NCBI GenBank assembly: GCA_964016885.1
Contig: OZ024760.1
Location: 33,356,001-33,420,000, forward strand
DNA from: Eledone cirrhosa
Taxonomy: Eukaryota
Direction: 5' to 3'
DNA: 64,000 nucleotides
The notes below the pieces were generated by a model. It worked only from the letters and a program-made list of their open reading frames with translations. It had not been told where the DNA came from and ran no database searches. Shown here piece by piece: positions 11,761 to 22,640 of the stretch. A program made the translations under genes and the position numbers. Each line of letters begins with the position of its first letter. Position 1 is the stretch's first letter.

Positions 11761-14700
11761 TGGATGTAAATATAATGTATTTTGCAATACACTTTATGCT
11801 TAATTAAAAGCATTTTGAAGACCGTAAGCTATTGTTTTAAAGTAGTGACAAATTCACTCACTTCGATCTCAGCAAACAGGAGGAGATAAGCCGACATGAC
11901 ATGTTTCGCTTTTGTTGAAGCTTATCAAGGCCAACTACCCCGCCCGTCTGCTGAGATTAATGATGTTATATTCTTATAGAAATCTAGTAAATAATCAGGA
12001 GCTGATTATGCAGAGCGGTTGTTGGTCAGGCAGAAATTAAAAATTAGAATTGTAGCTCTGAAATAGCAATATATATATGGATGTAAATATAATGTATTTT
12101 GCAATACACTTTATGCTTAATTAAAAGCATTTTGAAGACCGTAAGCTATTGTTTTAAAGTAGTGACAAATTCACTCACTTCGATCTCAGCAAACAGGAGG
12201 AGATAAGCCGACATGACATGTTTCGCTTTTGTTGAAGCTTATCAAGGCCAACTACCCCGCCCGTCTGCTGAGATTAATGATGTTATATTCTTATAGAAAT
12301 CTAGTAAATAATCAGGAGCTGATTATGCAGAGCGGTTGTTGGTCAGGCAGAAATTAAAAATTAGAATTGTAGCTCTGAAATAGCAATATATATATGGATG
12401 TAAATATAATGTATTTTGCAATACACTTTATGCTTAATTAAAAGCATTTTGAAGACCGTAAGCTATTGTTTTAAAGTAGTGACAAATTCACTCACTTCGA
12501 TCTCAGCAAACAGGAGGAGATAAGCCGACATGACATGTTTCGCTTTTGTTGAAGCTTATCAAGGCCAACTACCCCGCCCGTCTGCTGAGATTAATGATGT
12601 TATATTCTTATAGAAATCTAGTAAATAATCAGGAGCTGATTATGCAGAGCGGTTGTTGGTCAGGCAGAAATTAAAAATTAGAATTGTAGCTCTGAAATAG
12701 CAATATATATATGGATGTAAATATAATGTATTTTGCAATACACTTTATGCTTAATTAAAAGCATTTTGAAGACCGTAAGCTATTGTTTTAAAGTAGTGAC
12801 AAATTCACTCACTTCGATCTCAGCAAACAGGAGGAGATAAGCCGACATGACATGTTTCGCTTTTGTTGAAGCTTATCAAGGCCAACTACCCCGCCCGTCT
12901 GCTGAGATTAATGATGTTATATTCTTATAGAAATCTAGTAAATAATCAGGAGCTGATTATGCAGAGCGGTTGTTGGTCAGGCAGAAATCAAAAATTAGAA
13001 TTGTAGCTCTGAAATAGCAATATATATATGGATGTAAATATAATGTATTTTGCAATACACTTTATGCTTAATTAAAAGCATTTTGAAGACCGTAAGCTAT
13101 TGTTTTAAAGTAGTGACAAATTCACTCACTTCGATCTCAGCAAACAGGAGGAGATAAGCCGACATGACATCTTTCGCTTTTGTTGAAGCTTATCAAGGCC
13201 AACTACCCCGCCCGTCTGCTGAGATTAATGATGTTATATTCTTATAGAAATCTAGTAAATAATCAGGAGCTGATTATGCAGAGCGGTTGTTGGTCAGGCA
13301 GAAATTAAAAATTAGAATTGTAGCTCTGAAATAGCAATATATATATGGATGTAAATATAATGTATTTTGCAATACACTTTATGCTTAATTAAAAGTATTT
13401 TGAAGACCGTAAGCTATTGTTTTAAAGTAGTGACAAATTCACTCACTTCGATCTCAGCAAACAGGAGGAGATAAGCCGACATGACATGTTTCGCTTTTGT
13501 TGAAGCTTATCAAGGCCAACTACCCCGCCCGTCTGCTGAGATTAATGATGTTATATTCTTATAGAACTGAGATCGAAGTGAGTGAATTTGTCACTACTTT
13601 AAAACAATAGCTTACGGTCTTCAAAATGCTTTTAATTAAGCATAAAGTGTATTGCAAAATACATTATATTTACATCCATATATATATTGCTATTTCAGAG
13701 CTACAATTCTAATTTTTAATTTCTGCCTGACCAACAACCGCTCTGCATAATCAGCTCCTGATTATTTACTAGATTTCTATAAGAATATAACATCATTAAT
13801 CTCAGCAGACGGGCGGGGTAGTTGGCCTTGATAAGCTTCAACAAAAGCGAAACATGTCATGTCGGCTTATCTCCTCCTGTTTGCTGAGATCGAAGTGAGT
13901 GAATTTGTCACTACTTTAAAACAATAGCTTACGGTCTTCAAAATGCTTTTAATTAAGCATAAAGTGTATTGCAAAATACATTATATTTACATCCATATAT
14001 ATATTGCTATTTCAGAGCTACAATTCTAATTTTTAATTTCTGCCTGACCAACAACCGCTCTGCATAATCAGCTCCTGATTATTTACTAGATTTCTATAAG
14101 AATATAACATCATTAATCTCAGCAGACGGGCGGGGTAGTTGGCCTTGATAAGTTTCAACAAAAGCGAAACATGTCATGTCGGCTTATCTCCTCCTGTTTG
14201 CTGAGATCGAAGTGAGTGAATTTGTCACTACTTTAAAACAATAGCTTACGGTCTTCAAAATGCTTTTAATTAAGCATAAAGTGTATTGCAAAATACATTA
14301 TATTTACATCCATATATATATTGCTATTTCAGAGCTACAATTCTAATTTTTAATTTCTGCCTGACCAACAACCGCTCTGCATAATCAGCTCCTGATTATT
14401 TACTAGATTTCTATAAGAATATAACATCATTAATCTCAGCAGACGGGCGGGGTAGTTGGCCTTGATAAGCTTCAACAAAAGCGAAACATGTCATGTCGGC
14501 TTATCTCCTCCTGTTTGCTGAGATCGAAGTGAGTGAATTTGTCACTACTTTAAAACAATAGCTTACGGTCTTCAAAATGCTTTTAATTAAGCATAAAGTG
14601 TATTGCAAAATACATTATATTTACATCCATATATATATTGCTATTTCAGAGCTACAATTCTAATTTTTAATTTCTGCCTGACCAACAACCGCTCTGCATA

Positions 14701-15931
14701 ATCAGCTCCTGATTATTTACTAGATTTCTATAAGAATATAACATCATTAATCTCAGCAGACGGGCGGGGTAGTTGGCCTTGATAAGCTTCAACAAAAGCG
14801 AAACATGTCATGTCGGCTTATCTCCTCCTGTTTGCTGAGATCGAAGTGAGTGAATTTGTCACTACTTTAAAACAATAGCTTACGGTCTTCAAAATGCTTT
14901 TAATTAAGCATAAAGTGTATTGCAAAATACATTATATTTACATCCATATATATATTGCTATTTCAGAGCTACAATTCTAATTTTTAATTTCTGCCTGACC
15001 AACAACCGCTCTGCATAATCAGCTCCTGATTATTTACTAGATTTCTATAAGAATATAACATCATTAATCTCAGCAGACGGGCGGGGTAGTTGGCCTTGAT
15101 AAGCTTCAACAAAAGCGAAACATGTCATGTCGGCTTATCTCCTCCTGTTTGCTGAGATCGAAGTGAGTGAATTTGTCACTACTTTAAAACAATAGCTTAC
15201 GGTCTTCAAAATGCTTTTAATTAAGCATAAAGTGTATTGCAAAATACATTATATTTACATCCATATATATATTGCTATTTCAGAGCTACAATTCTAATTT
15301 TTAATTTCTGCCTGACCAACAACCGCTCTGCATAATCAGCTCCTGATTATTTACTAGATTTCTATAAGAATATAACATCATTAATCTCAGCAGACGGGCG
15401 GGGTAGTTGGCCTTGATAAGCTTCAACAAAAGCGAAACATGTCATGTCGGCTTATCTCCTCCTGTTTGCTGAGATCGAAGTGAGTGAATTTGTCACTACT
15501 TTAAAACAATAGCTTACGGTCTTCAAAATGCTTTTAATTAAGCATAAAGTGTATTGCAAAATACATTATATTTACATCCATATATATATTGCTATTTCAG
15601 AGCTACAATTCTAATTTTTAATTTCTGCCTGACCAACAACCGCTCTGCATAATCAGCTCCTGATTATTTACTAGATTTCTATAAGAATATAACATCATTA
15701 ATCTCAGCAGACGGGCGGGGTAGTTGGCTTTGATAAGCTTCAACAAAAGCGAAACATGTCATGTCGGCTTATCTCCTCCTGTTTGCTGAGATCGAAGTGA
15801 GTGAATTTGTCACTACTTTAAAACAATAGCTTACGGTCTTCAAAATGCTTTTAATTAAGCATAAAGTGTATTGCAAAATACATTATATTTACATCCATAT
15901 ATATATTGCTATTTCAGAGCTACAATTCTAA
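11761..15931. mobile_element. Tandem array of a 317-bp HHR-containing unit (non-LTR retrozyme-like): about 5.7 units on minus, then about 7.5 units on plus, inversion at 13566/13567
   Basis: Unit starts at 11761, 12078, 12395, 12712, 13029, 13346. Only about 5 substitutions seen in about 4.2 kb. One HHR per unit (13 copies). Confidence 0.92.
13801..13890 (+). ncRNA. Representative HHR of the 317-bp array, U3:A8 core variant, long stem I
   Basis: gcc UUGAUAA gcuu-caacaa-aagc GAAA cau-guc-auGUC ggc; distal pairing aucucagcagac/guuugcugagau. Confidence 0.82.
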
Positions 15932-20821: not shown

Positions 20822-22640
20822 ATTGGAATAAATGCTCTGAAATAGCGATATATATGTGAATATAGACATAGAATATTCGAAAATATTCTGTATGTTTATA
20901 ATAAACATTTTGAAGACCTAATCGCTATAGAATAGAATACGTCACGTATTACAATTAGATTCTCGATAAAAGCAAGGGAAGTAATCTACGCGTTTCATTC
21001 TTGTAAGAAATCATCAGGACTACATATCCAGTGCTTTTATCGAGAATGACACAGCTAGAGACTTATAGAATACTTAGCTGTGTACAGGAACTGGTTTGAA
21101 AGAGCGGTTGCCGGTCCGGCAGAAATTAGAAATTGGAATAAATGCTCTGAAATAGCGATATATATGTGAATATAGACATAGAATATTCGAAAATATTCTG
21201 TATGTTTATAATAAACATTTTGAAGACCTAATCGCTATAGAATAGAATACGTCACGTATTACAATTAGATTCTCGATAAAAGCAAGGGAAGTAATCTACG
21301 CGTTTCATTCTTGTAAGAAATCATCAGGACTACATATCCAGTGCTTTTATCGAGAATGACACAGCTAGAGACTTATAGAATACTTAGCTGTGTACAGGAA
21401 CTGGTTTGAAAGAGCGGTTGCCGGTCCGGCAGAAATTAGAAATTGGAATAAATGCTCTGAAATAGCGATATATATGTGAATATAGACATAGAATATTCGA
21501 AAATATTCTGTATGTTTATAATAAACATTTTGAAGACCTAATCGCTATAGAATAGAATACGTCACGTATTACAATTAGATTCTCGATAAAAGCAAGGGAA
21601 GTAATCTACGCGTTTCATTCTTGTAAGAAATCATCAGGACTACATATCCAGTGCTTTTATCGAGAATGACACAGCTAGAGACTTATAGAATACTTAGCTG
21701 TGTACAGGAACTGGTTTGAAAGAGCGGTTGCCGGTCCGGCAGAAATTAGAAATTGGAATAAATGCTCTGAAATAGCGATATATATGTGAATATAGACATA
21801 GAATATTCGAAAATATTCTGTATGTTTATAATAAACATTTTGAAGACCTAATCGCTATAGAATAGAATACGTCACGTATTACAATTAGATTCTCGATAAA
21901 AGCAAGGGAAGTAATCTACGCGTTTCATTCTTGTAAGAAATCATCAGGACTACATATCCAGTGCTTTTATCGAGAATGACACAGCTAGAGACTTATAGAA
22001 TACTTAGCTATAGAATACATATATATCGCTATTTCAGAGCATTTATTCCAATTTCTAATTTCTGCCGGACCGGCAACCGCTCTTTCAAACCAGTTCCTGT
22101 ACACAGCTAAGTATTCTATAAGTCTCTAGCTGTGTCATTCTCGATAAAAGCACTGGATATGTAGTCCTGATGATTTCTTACAAGAATGAAACGCGTAGAT
22201 TACTTCCCTTGCTTTTATCGAGAATCTAATTGTAATACGTGACGTATTCTATTCTATAGCGATTAGGTCTTCAAAATGTTTATTATAAACATACAGAATA
22301 TTTTCGAATATTCTATGTCTATATTCACATATATATCGCTATTTCAGAGCATTTATTCCAATTTCTAATTTCTGCCGGACCGGCAACCGCTCTTTCAAAC
22401 CAGTTCCTGTACACAGCTAAGTATTCTATAAGTCTCTAGCTGTGTCATTCTCGATAAAAGCACTGGATATGTAGTCCTGATGATTTCTTACAAGAATGAA
22501 ACGCGTAGATTACTTCCCTTGCTTTTATCGAGAATCTAATTGTAATACGTGACGTATTCTATTCTATAGCGATTAGGTCTTCAAAATGTTTATTATAAAC
22601 ATACAGAATATTTTCGAATATTCTATGTCTATATTCACAT
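20822..22640. mobile_element. Tandem array of a 310-bp HHR-containing unit (retrozyme-like): about 3.8 units on minus plus 2 units on plus, inversion at about 22009-22018
   Basis: Unit starts at 20823, 21133, 21443, 21753; units essentially identical; 6 HHR copies. Confidence 0.92.
22161..22203 (+). ncRNA. Representative HHR of the 310-bp array
   Basis: guaguc CUGAUGA u-uucuu-ac-aagaa-u GAAA cgc GUA gauuac; palindromic stem III ACGCGU. Confidence 0.85.

What the first reader, a model, noticed from the sequence alone, without database searches (positions are those of the whole stretch)
13606..22395. The 317-bp and 310-bp arrays carry different ribozymes but share a covarying structured domain and use homologous ends
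Compare 13606-13745 with 22255-22395. Both have a closing stem AUAGC..GCUAU, an invariant GGUCUUCAAA, a first hairpin (AUGCUU/AAGCAU versus AUGUUUA/UAAACAU), a second hairpin of different sequence, a short (AU)n run, and then GCUAUUUCAGAGC...AUUCYAAUUUYUAAUUUCUGCC.GACC..CAACCGCUCU. GGUC could pair with the downstream GACC. In both arrays the shorter arm ends in the (AU)n run and the longer arm ends at AUUCYAAU (15931 and 20822). This suggests a modular design: an interchangeable HHR plus a conserved mobilisation domain.
Basis: partly seen in the sequence, partly recalled or inferred. Interest (0 to 1): 0.7.

Follow-up and report, generated by a model that had tools for sequence, protein, structure and literature searches.

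The report
Shared priming domain in ribozyme retroelements
The two repeat arrays are cousins in one large family of small jumping elements that carry a predicted self-cutting RNA; the roughly 140-base folded region they share surrounds the two fixed points where their insertions end, so it is likely the handle a Penelope-type transposon enzyme grips to copy them, while their ribozymes appear to have diverged stepwise rather than been swapped.

Summary
The 317- and 310-bp arrays are two young subfamilies of one non-LTR retrozyme lineage (22,115 domain matches in this genome). Whole units are colinear. Older subfamilies bridge the two hammerheads, and the 3:8 core pair occurs as both C:G and U:A across the lineage. 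The shared domain diverges 2-3 times more slowly than the rest at every depth, and its two hairpins show three compensated pairs. GGUC/GACC is invariant, so untested. Ends are homologous: 50 of 53 typed two-arm insertions have one arm ending at site E1 and the other at E2, about 35 nt apart, the Penelope (PLE) 'tail'. The short-arm/long-arm rule fails (30 vs 20). Best model: a PLE reverse transcriptase binds the domain, starts at both sites and runs round a circular RNA from both ends of a cut in (AT)n. No autonomous PLE carrying the domain was found, and no RNA data were available. This scan earlier reported the two-arm PLE footprint for the 310 family on other DNA; what is added here is the lineage-wide definition of the cis domain.

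The parts
11752..13566 (-). 317-bp retrozyme array, left arm (5.7 units); outer end at site E1, merging into (AT)n 10751-11761
13567..15932 (+). 317-bp retrozyme array, right arm (7.5 units); outer end at site E2
13604..13750 (+). Shared domain, first full copy in the 317 right arm: closing stem P1, unpaired GGUCUUCRAAA, hairpins 1 and 2, E1 in or just before the (AU) run, tail, E2, stem P5
13802..13889 (+). Type I hammerhead module of the 317 unit: outer stem, U3:A8 core at 13828, 4-bp stems II and III, predicted GUC cleavage after 13863
15925..15932 (+). E2 end of the 317 array
17020..20748 (+). Neighbouring Penelope-like element: 897-aa ORF at 17545-20238, 3' pLTR with a minimal hammerhead at about 20546, inverted 5' pLTR with a tail of about 60 nt. 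Same target class, no shared domain
   Evidence: (RVT_1 E = 3e-4, below cut-off; GIY-YIG seen by eye only)
20822..22009 (-). 310-bp retrozyme array, left arm (3.8 units); outer end at site E2
22017..22646 (+). 310-bp retrozyme array, right arm (2.0 units); outer end at site E1, merging into (AT)n
22138..22226 (+). Type I hammerhead module of the 310 unit: outer stem, C3:G8 core at 22167, minimal palindromic stem III, predicted GUA cleavage after 22197
22253..22399 (+). Shared domain, 310 copy (hairpin 2 with a UUCG loop; small hairpin P6 intact)

Best explanation
The two arrays are sister subfamilies of one non-coding retrozyme lineage whose insertions end at two fixed sites about 35 nt apart inside a slowly evolving, predicted folded domain, which likely serves as the binding and priming site for a Penelope-type reverse transcriptase/endonuclease acting in trans. 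Shown: colinear descent, the rate contrast, compensated pairs in two hairpins, paired E1/E2 ends in (AT)n, random inner ends, and near-identical units within one insertion. Inferred steps: (1) read-through transcription of an array; (2) hammerhead cleavage to monomers and ligation to circles; (3) a PLE protein binds the domain, where stems P1 and P5 leave E1, E2 and GGUCUUCRAAA largely unpaired; (4) it cuts both strands of AT-rich DNA and primes one end at E1 and the other at E2; (5) both polymerases run round the circle for a variable number of turns; (6) the two cDNAs join, giving head-to-head arms. The ribozyme module changed stepwise under a structure-only constraint.
For: Ends: 184 of 222 arms with a defined 3' end stop in the E1 or E2 window, and 174 of those 184 are followed by microsatellite. 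Of 83 divergent arm pairings, 53 had both ends typed and 50 were E1+E2. In old subfamilies E1 is at -11 and E2 at +24/25, about 35 nt apart. This matches the 30-40 bp PLE tail, which Frangieh et al. showed in vitro to lie between two internal RT start sites, with both DNA strands cut and extended and RNA downstream of the start sites required (PMC11167929). Sequence downstream of E2, which the terminal unit never copies, is conserved in all subfamilies. Domain divergence 0.10-0.27 against 0.27-0.56 for the hammerhead module over 15 group pairs. Hairpins 1 and 2: 3 of 14 pairs changed on both sides, none broken, one with a U.G intermediate; 17 double-changed cells against 6.1 in shuffles. Shortened domains are rare: 193 matches against 22,115. 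One template per insertion: 0.56 differences within against 3.32 between 22 insertions of 310, arms identical in 10 of 11. Inner ends do not pile up at the cleavage site (3 of 85 within 5 nt, 3.0 expected) and arms reach about 10 units.
Against: No autonomous PLE with this domain was found, so the enzyme is unidentified. Domain covariation is modest: 5 double-changed pairs, reached by 52 of 500 shuffles, and neither control corrects for relatedness. P5 and GGUC/GACC are invariant; P6 is broken in the 317 family. Predicted pairing of P1 is only about 0.6, and of hairpin 1 in 310 only 0.43. The sample was chosen through domain motifs, which biases towards a conserved domain. The non-domain data reject the domain tree (p-AU 2e-5, 2000 replicates), although the domain data accept the other tree (p-AU 0.10); the sister group of 310 differs between partitions. 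An uncut multimeric transcript explains the within-array identity equally well, and hammerhead cleavage was not needed for PAc insertion in vitro. Cleavage and circles were not observed.
Confidence: 0.65

Rival explanations
1. Modular design: unrelated hammerheads are exchanged on a constant mobilisation domain. In the weak form, the 310 family took only its catalytic core and stem II from a co-resident autonomous PLE (the element at window 32231-32916) by a short template switch.
For: Direct 317-310 comparison outside the domain is not above shuffles. The 310 stem II matches that PLE best among 22 ribozymes compared (z 4.0), with the same C3:G8 core, U.U closure and GUA site, whereas its closest lineage relatives have U3:A8 and a different stem II. 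The two elements are joined at L099. Partition trees are not identical.
Against: The flanks of the 310 ribozyme do not match that PLE (z below 0) but match the lineage (z up to 4.1). A bridging subfamily shares the stem I strands, the outer stem and the 6-nt loop II with 310 (distance 0.28-0.36 against 0.50 to 317). The rate ratio is ordinary. A 3-bp stem match among about 14 families can be chance. The domain was never seen on an unrelated ribozyme.
Confidence: 0.12
2. The invariant blocks are conserved as DNA, as an internal promoter (a conserved TATA-like ATTCTATAAG lies about 25 nt before the ribozyme's outer stem). The ends then reflect only local AT microhomology, and the hairpins stabilise the RNA.
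For: The most conserved blocks show no covariation. The TATA-like 10-mer is conserved in all subfamilies. A different 467-bp retrozyme here carries, by eye, the host U6 upstream motif and TATA at U6-like spacing.
Against: No match of 317 or 310 to host U6/U2 upstream regions above shuffles (p at least 0.09; low power, since the 467 unit also failed). T4-T5 runs in the units would stop polymerase III. A promoter does not explain why the conserved region brackets E1 and E2, or the 50 of 53 E1+E2 pairing. The two roles can coexist for the downstream block.
Confidence: 0.15
3. The conservation is a by-product of common descent and of how copies were picked; the domain has no specific protein-binding role, and any AU-rich accessible RNA is primed.
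For: Loci were found with domain motifs; covariation is limited to three pairs at subfamily level; other ribozyme elements in the genome insert the same way with unrelated 3' ends.
Against: The rate contrast holds at all 15 depths, also between subfamilies recovered through other motifs. No pair in hairpins 1-2 is broken. Ends stay at homologous positions even where the (AU) run is not pure.
Confidence: 0.08

Closest known systems
Metazoan non-LTR retrozymes (Cervera and de la Pena 2020, PMC7229834, passages read; Li, Clavereau and Pollet 2026, bioRxiv 10.64898/2026.07.22.740005, parts 1-3 of 5 read)
   Same: Tandem units of about 300 bp, low GC, one type I hammerhead per unit, no ORF, co-occurrence with PLEs; PLE mobilisation of a circular RNA proposed.
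   Different: Here insertions are head-to-head two-arm arrays in (AT)n with paired E1/E2 ends and a definable conserved domain. 'Inverted' and 'microsatellite' do not occur in the main text of PMC7229834; 'tail' and 'covariation' do not occur in the preprint. Li et al. matched 24 of 57 Xenopus families to known elements, nearly all PLEs; no such match was found here.
Penelope-like element pLTR and tail; PAc internal initiation (Frangieh et al. 2024, PMC11167929, parts 1-2 of 4 read; Craig et al. 2021, PMC8557442, and Arkhipova et al. 2013, PMC3846280, passages read)
   Same: Inverted 5'-truncated arm, 30-40 bp tail on one end, AT-rich targets, two internal RT start sites, a need for RNA beyond the start sites.
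   Different: Non-coding and multimeric in both arms. In PAc the start sites lie in an AC-rich stem-loop inside the ORF and are not homologous to the cut DNA, whereas E1 here abuts an (AU) run that could pair with the (AT)n target.
U3-A8 hammerhead variant of Schistosoma PLEs (Cervera and de la Pena 2014, PMC4209133, passages read)
   Same: Compensated C3-G8 to U3-A8 change in the core; minimal palindromic helix III as in the 310 unit.
   Different: Here both states recur on different branches of one retrozyme lineage.
Non-autonomous Chlamys elements such as MRC1 (PMC8557442, passage read)
   Same: Non-autonomous PLE derivatives with multicopy head-to-tail insertions.
   Different: Those resemble their autonomous partners at the 3' end, and their clade lacks canonical hammerheads; the partner here is unknown.

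Membership tests
Non-LTR retrozyme | Short tandem units (150-450 bp), low GC, no ORF or LTR/PBS/PPT | tested here: met
   317 and 310 bp units, GC about 0.34, no ORF of 150 aa inside the arrays
Non-LTR retrozyme | Type I hammerhead motif in each unit | tested here: met
   Descriptor scan: 12 motifs in the 317 array and 6 in the 310 array; stems covary. Rfam gave no hit at gathering score.
Non-LTR retrozyme | Dispersed, high copy number | tested here: met
   22,115 domain matches, control 0; 547 exact young-317 ribozymes; 1,301 of an older type
Non-LTR retrozyme | Self-cleavage in vitro | not testable with these tools
   Needs a bench assay; only 1 of 9 Xenopus elements cleaved in Li et al.
Non-LTR retrozyme | Expressed as linear and circular monomer RNA | tested here: inconclusive
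   No RNA holder listed; only indirect genomic signs
PLE-mobilised element | Inverted 5'-truncated arm with random inner ends | tested here: met
   83 divergent arm pairings; inner ends spread over the unit
PLE-mobilised element | 30-40 bp tail on one end only | tested here: met
   50 of 53 typed pairs are E1+E2; about 35 nt apart in old subfamilies, apparent 26 nt in young ones where the (AT) run merges with the target
PLE-mobilised element | Sequence homology to the pLTR of an autonomous PLE | tested here: inconclusive
   None among 18 ribozyme-end regions of about 14 families, in 264 kb searched with a covariance model, or in 27 variant loci; this is a small part of a 3-Gb genome
Modular (ribozyme-swapping) element | Same domain joined to non-homologous ribozymes | tested here: not met
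   Continuous series of intermediates and a bridging subfamily
Scrambled (type-SGC) hammerhead on the antisense strand | Core strands with stems I, II and III able to form | tested here: not met
   By eye and alignment A1: a GAAA/stem III half and a UUGAAGA occur, but stems I and II cannot pair and position 3:8 would be U.G. The family definition is taken from earlier notes, not from the paper.

The most novel reading that the evidence does not exclude
The 140-nt domain is a transferable RNA address for a Penelope reverse transcriptase, functionally like the template-presenting part of telomerase RNA: a multiloop that displays two priming sites and is enough to make any circular RNA insert as two-armed concatemers into (AT)n. 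It was held constant through at least six subfamily radiations while the ribozyme core flipped repeatedly between C3:G8 and U3:A8.
Probability: 0.3. Interest if true: 0.8.

Novelty: new variant of a known kind. Interest (0 to 1): 0.5.

Why it matters
How PLE enzymes recognise their RNA, and whether they really mobilise retrozymes, is open: Cervera 2020 and Li 2026 propose it from co-occurrence and pLTR similarity, and Frangieh 2024 mapped the start sites for one element. A non-coding parasite keeps only what the enzyme needs, so a lineage with 22,000 units and many subfamilies is a natural mutagenesis of that signal. It gives a short, concrete RNA with predicted essential, structural and free positions, and two predicted start sites, for the existing in vitro assay. 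It also documents repeated compensatory switching of a catalytic-core pair. The element class itself is known, and the two-arm footprint was already noted by this scan.

Tried and rejected
Rfam at gathering score: no hit in the window. Metagenome scan with the domain pattern: 0. Pattern for a third base before GACC: 0. Search for other families or a partner PLE: covariance model R1 gave at most 23.6 bits outside the arrays in the window and 27.3 bits in 200 kb of neighbouring DNA; the four alignments viewed were AT-rich palindromes without the motifs. Two apparent new upstream sequences (L137, L163) were a Helitron-like insert. A by-eye likeness to the tail of the PLE at window 2420-10750 was not significant (p 0.07-0.11). 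26 of 27 variant loci continued into the retrozyme's own linker and one into a microsatellite; longer ORFs further out were not identified. Single junctions with PLEs (L050, L099) can be nested insertion plus deletion. GGUC/GACC: invariant, outward extension broken in 3 of 3 pairs, probability 0.01 or less in nested folding of the natural monomer (pseudoknots are not modelled, and the minimum-energy fold did contain it). Arm-length rule rejected. snRNA-type promoter not supported, low power. Antisense scrambled hammerhead rejected by eye. Sequencing runs: no RNA holder listed; laid contigs show pieces of several subfamilies in runs with other organism labels, some at depth 2-5 only, so they are not used as support. 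A phylogeny-aware count of compensatory events is missing, so the covariation p-values are optimistic. Rows dropped: 8 of 31 representative units (large deletions, or degraded repeats of one array) before the trees and pair tables. Supplements of the cited papers were not seen and may hold retrozyme structures or end maps.
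Full report
1. Observation. The window is G000:C21:33356001-33420000 in a 3.0-Gb, (AT)n-rich animal-type genome. Both arrays consist of two head-to-head arms set in (AT)n: 317 bp at 11752-13566 (-) and 13567-15932 (+), and 310 bp at 20822-22009 (-) and 22017-22646 (+). The 140-nt domains align far above chance (111 against 19 +/- 3; 0 of 500 shuffles). The other 170 nt do not by local score (84 of 500), but stay colinear at 40-65%. 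Each unit has a type I hammerhead at the same position: U3:A8 core with a 4-bp stem III in 317, C3:G8 core with a minimal palindromic stem III in 310. Rfam misses both.

2. One lineage, not two modules. A two-block domain pattern matches 22,115 times, control 0. An older type matches 1,301 times and the exact young-317 ribozyme 547 times. From 99 distinct full units, 31 representatives align end to end. They form a graded series: hairpin 1 goes U-A, U.G, C-G, and the 3:8 core pair is C:G in some subfamilies and U:A in others. On 23 of the 31, the domain differs by 0.10-0.27 and the hammerhead module by 0.27-0.56. The corrected rest/domain ratio is 1.5-3.1 over all 15 group pairs and 2.0-2.5 for those with 310. 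Trees of the two partitions give broadly the same groups. The domain data accept the tree of the rest (p-AU 0.10); the rest reject the poorly resolved domain tree (p-AU 2e-5; 2000 replicates only). With 39 units the sister of 310 differs between partitions (L070/L149 at 93-94% for the ribozyme side, L178 at 72% for the domain). A further subfamily shares the stem I strands, outer stem and loop II with 310 but has a U3:A8 core; its module is 0.28-0.36 from 310, against 0.50 for 317. The 310 ribozyme is therefore of lineage origin. One loose end remains: its core and stem II are nearly identical to those of an autonomous PLE (window 32779; ORF seen in L231, 39% identical over 137 aa to the window ORF at 4741-6543), while the flanks are not. 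Convergence or a short patch exchange are both possible.

3. Structure. The consensus fold is a multiloop closed by P1 that holds an unpaired GGUCUUCRAAA, hairpin 1, hairpin 2 and the (AU) segment. It is followed by P5, which encloses E2 and a small hairpin P6. At subfamily level hairpins 1 and 2 have 3 of 14 pairs changed on both sides, 2 on one side and none broken. P5 is invariant but for one broken end pair, P6 is broken in 317, and GGUC/GACC is invariant with no possible extension (permutation p = 0.015 for 4 doubles in 25 pairs, not corrected for relatedness). On 20 copies 93.7% of cells pair; double-changed cells are 17 against 6.1 (0 of 500 shuffles), but double-changed pairs are 5 against 3.4 (52 of 500). 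P1 scores 81%, partly because the aligner set the 310 strand one column off. The ribozyme module covaries more: 4 of 10 outer-stem pairs, 3 of 4 in stem I, stem II and the 3:8 pair. In the natural monomer, predicted pairing is 0.9 for hairpin 2, 0.96 and 0.43 for hairpin 1, about 0.6 for P1, 0.4-0.8 for P5; E2 and GGUCUUCAAA are 80-94% unpaired. Shortened domains make 193 matches; 64 of the 100 listed belong to one satellite array.

4. Ends. Of 234 arms, 222 have a defined 3' end: 87 at E1, 97 at E2, 38 elsewhere (mostly old copies). Of 83 divergent pairings, 50 are E1+E2, 3 are like with like, 24 have an untyped end and 6 are cut by the locus edge. In old subfamilies, where the (AU) run is impure, E1 resolves to just before it, about 35 nt from E2. 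Units within an insertion are nearly identical, across both arms, while insertions differ (310: 0.56 against 3.32 differences, 16 haplotypes in 22 insertions; 317 lineage: 1.28 against 6.11 in 8). Inner ends ignore the cleavage site.

5. Mechanism. Frangieh et al. (PMC11167929; main text read) showed that a PLE protein cuts both strands of AT-rich DNA, starts reverse transcription at two internal sites that delimit the genomic tail, and needs RNA beyond those sites. The domain here brackets exactly such a pair of sites and extends downstream of E2, where conservation cannot come from the inserted end itself. I infer that it is the enzyme's binding and priming element, and that two polymerases copy one circular monomer from the two DNA ends. 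Binding, cleavage, circles and the identity of the enzyme are inferred, not shown; an uncut multimer is an alternative template.

6. Partner search. No autonomous PLE with the domain was found in the window, in 200 kb beside it, among about 14 ribozyme-bearing families, or among variant loci. The adjacent PLE has a tail of about 60 nt and unrelated ends; L050 holds one junction between that family and an older 317 copy, with a 7-nt microhomology judged by eye.

7. Known and new. Retrozymes and their proposed PLE origin are published (PMC7229834; bioRxiv 10.64898/2026.07.22.740005), as are the tail and inverted arm (PMC8557442, PMC3846280) and the U3-A8 variant (PMC4209133). In five literature searches and term look-ups in two of these papers I found no description of a conserved structured domain around the tail in retrozymes; supplements and subscription papers were not seen. 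Earlier notes of this scan describe the two-arm PLE footprint for the 310 family; a sequence look-up for the 317 unit returned nothing.

8. Verdict. Real feature, known class, new variant. The conserved domain and paired ends stand; the interchangeable ribozyme, the pseudoknot and the arm-length rule do not, or are untested. Interest 0.5.

Noticed in passing
L137:1833-2592 and L163:1272-1758: The same Helitron-like insert (TC start in L163, GC-rich hairpin, CTAG end) interrupts the domain at the same A|T position in two separate loci.
   Followed up: partly
G000:C2:207687000-207740000 (L288): A satellite of at least 52 kb built from 317-lineage units of about 304 and 316 bp in higher-order patterns: a retrozyme turning into satellite DNA.
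   Followed up: no
window 32231-32916; L231: Two-armed end of an autonomous PLE family with a tail of about 70 nt, whose hammerhead core and stem II are nearly identical to those of the 310 retrozyme.
   Followed up: partly
L095:7540-8640; window about 50183: A separate 467-bp retrozyme family carries, by eye, the host U6 upstream motif and a TATA box at U6-like spacing before its hammerhead; it lacks the shared domain.
   Followed up: partly
L050:1370-1380: A 5'-truncated copy of the neighbouring PLE family joined head to head to an older 317-type unit through a short microhomology.
   Followed up: partly
L099:6428-7965: A 310 arm lies between the two arms of the 32231-type PLE and is joined directly to one of them.
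   Followed up: partly
L020, L022: 317 and 310 arrays stand side by side in one (AT)n tract at two further loci.
   Followed up: no
window 2420-10750, 38575, 41921-43244, 50881-53723, 57976: Several more hammerhead-bearing elements in (AT)n, most in inverted pairs, each with its own ribozyme and ends; PLE-type ORFs at 4738-7228, 34943-36106, 46888-48507 and 50954-52261.
   Followed up: partly
L243, L244, L250, L253, L283: Several old copies lack about 12 nt at the E1 segment; a natural test of whether E1 priming shifts.
   Followed up: no
all subfamilies, e.g. window 13774-13784: A TATA-like 10-mer about 25 nt before the ribozyme's outer stem is conserved in every subfamily; a possible core promoter.
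   Followed up: partly
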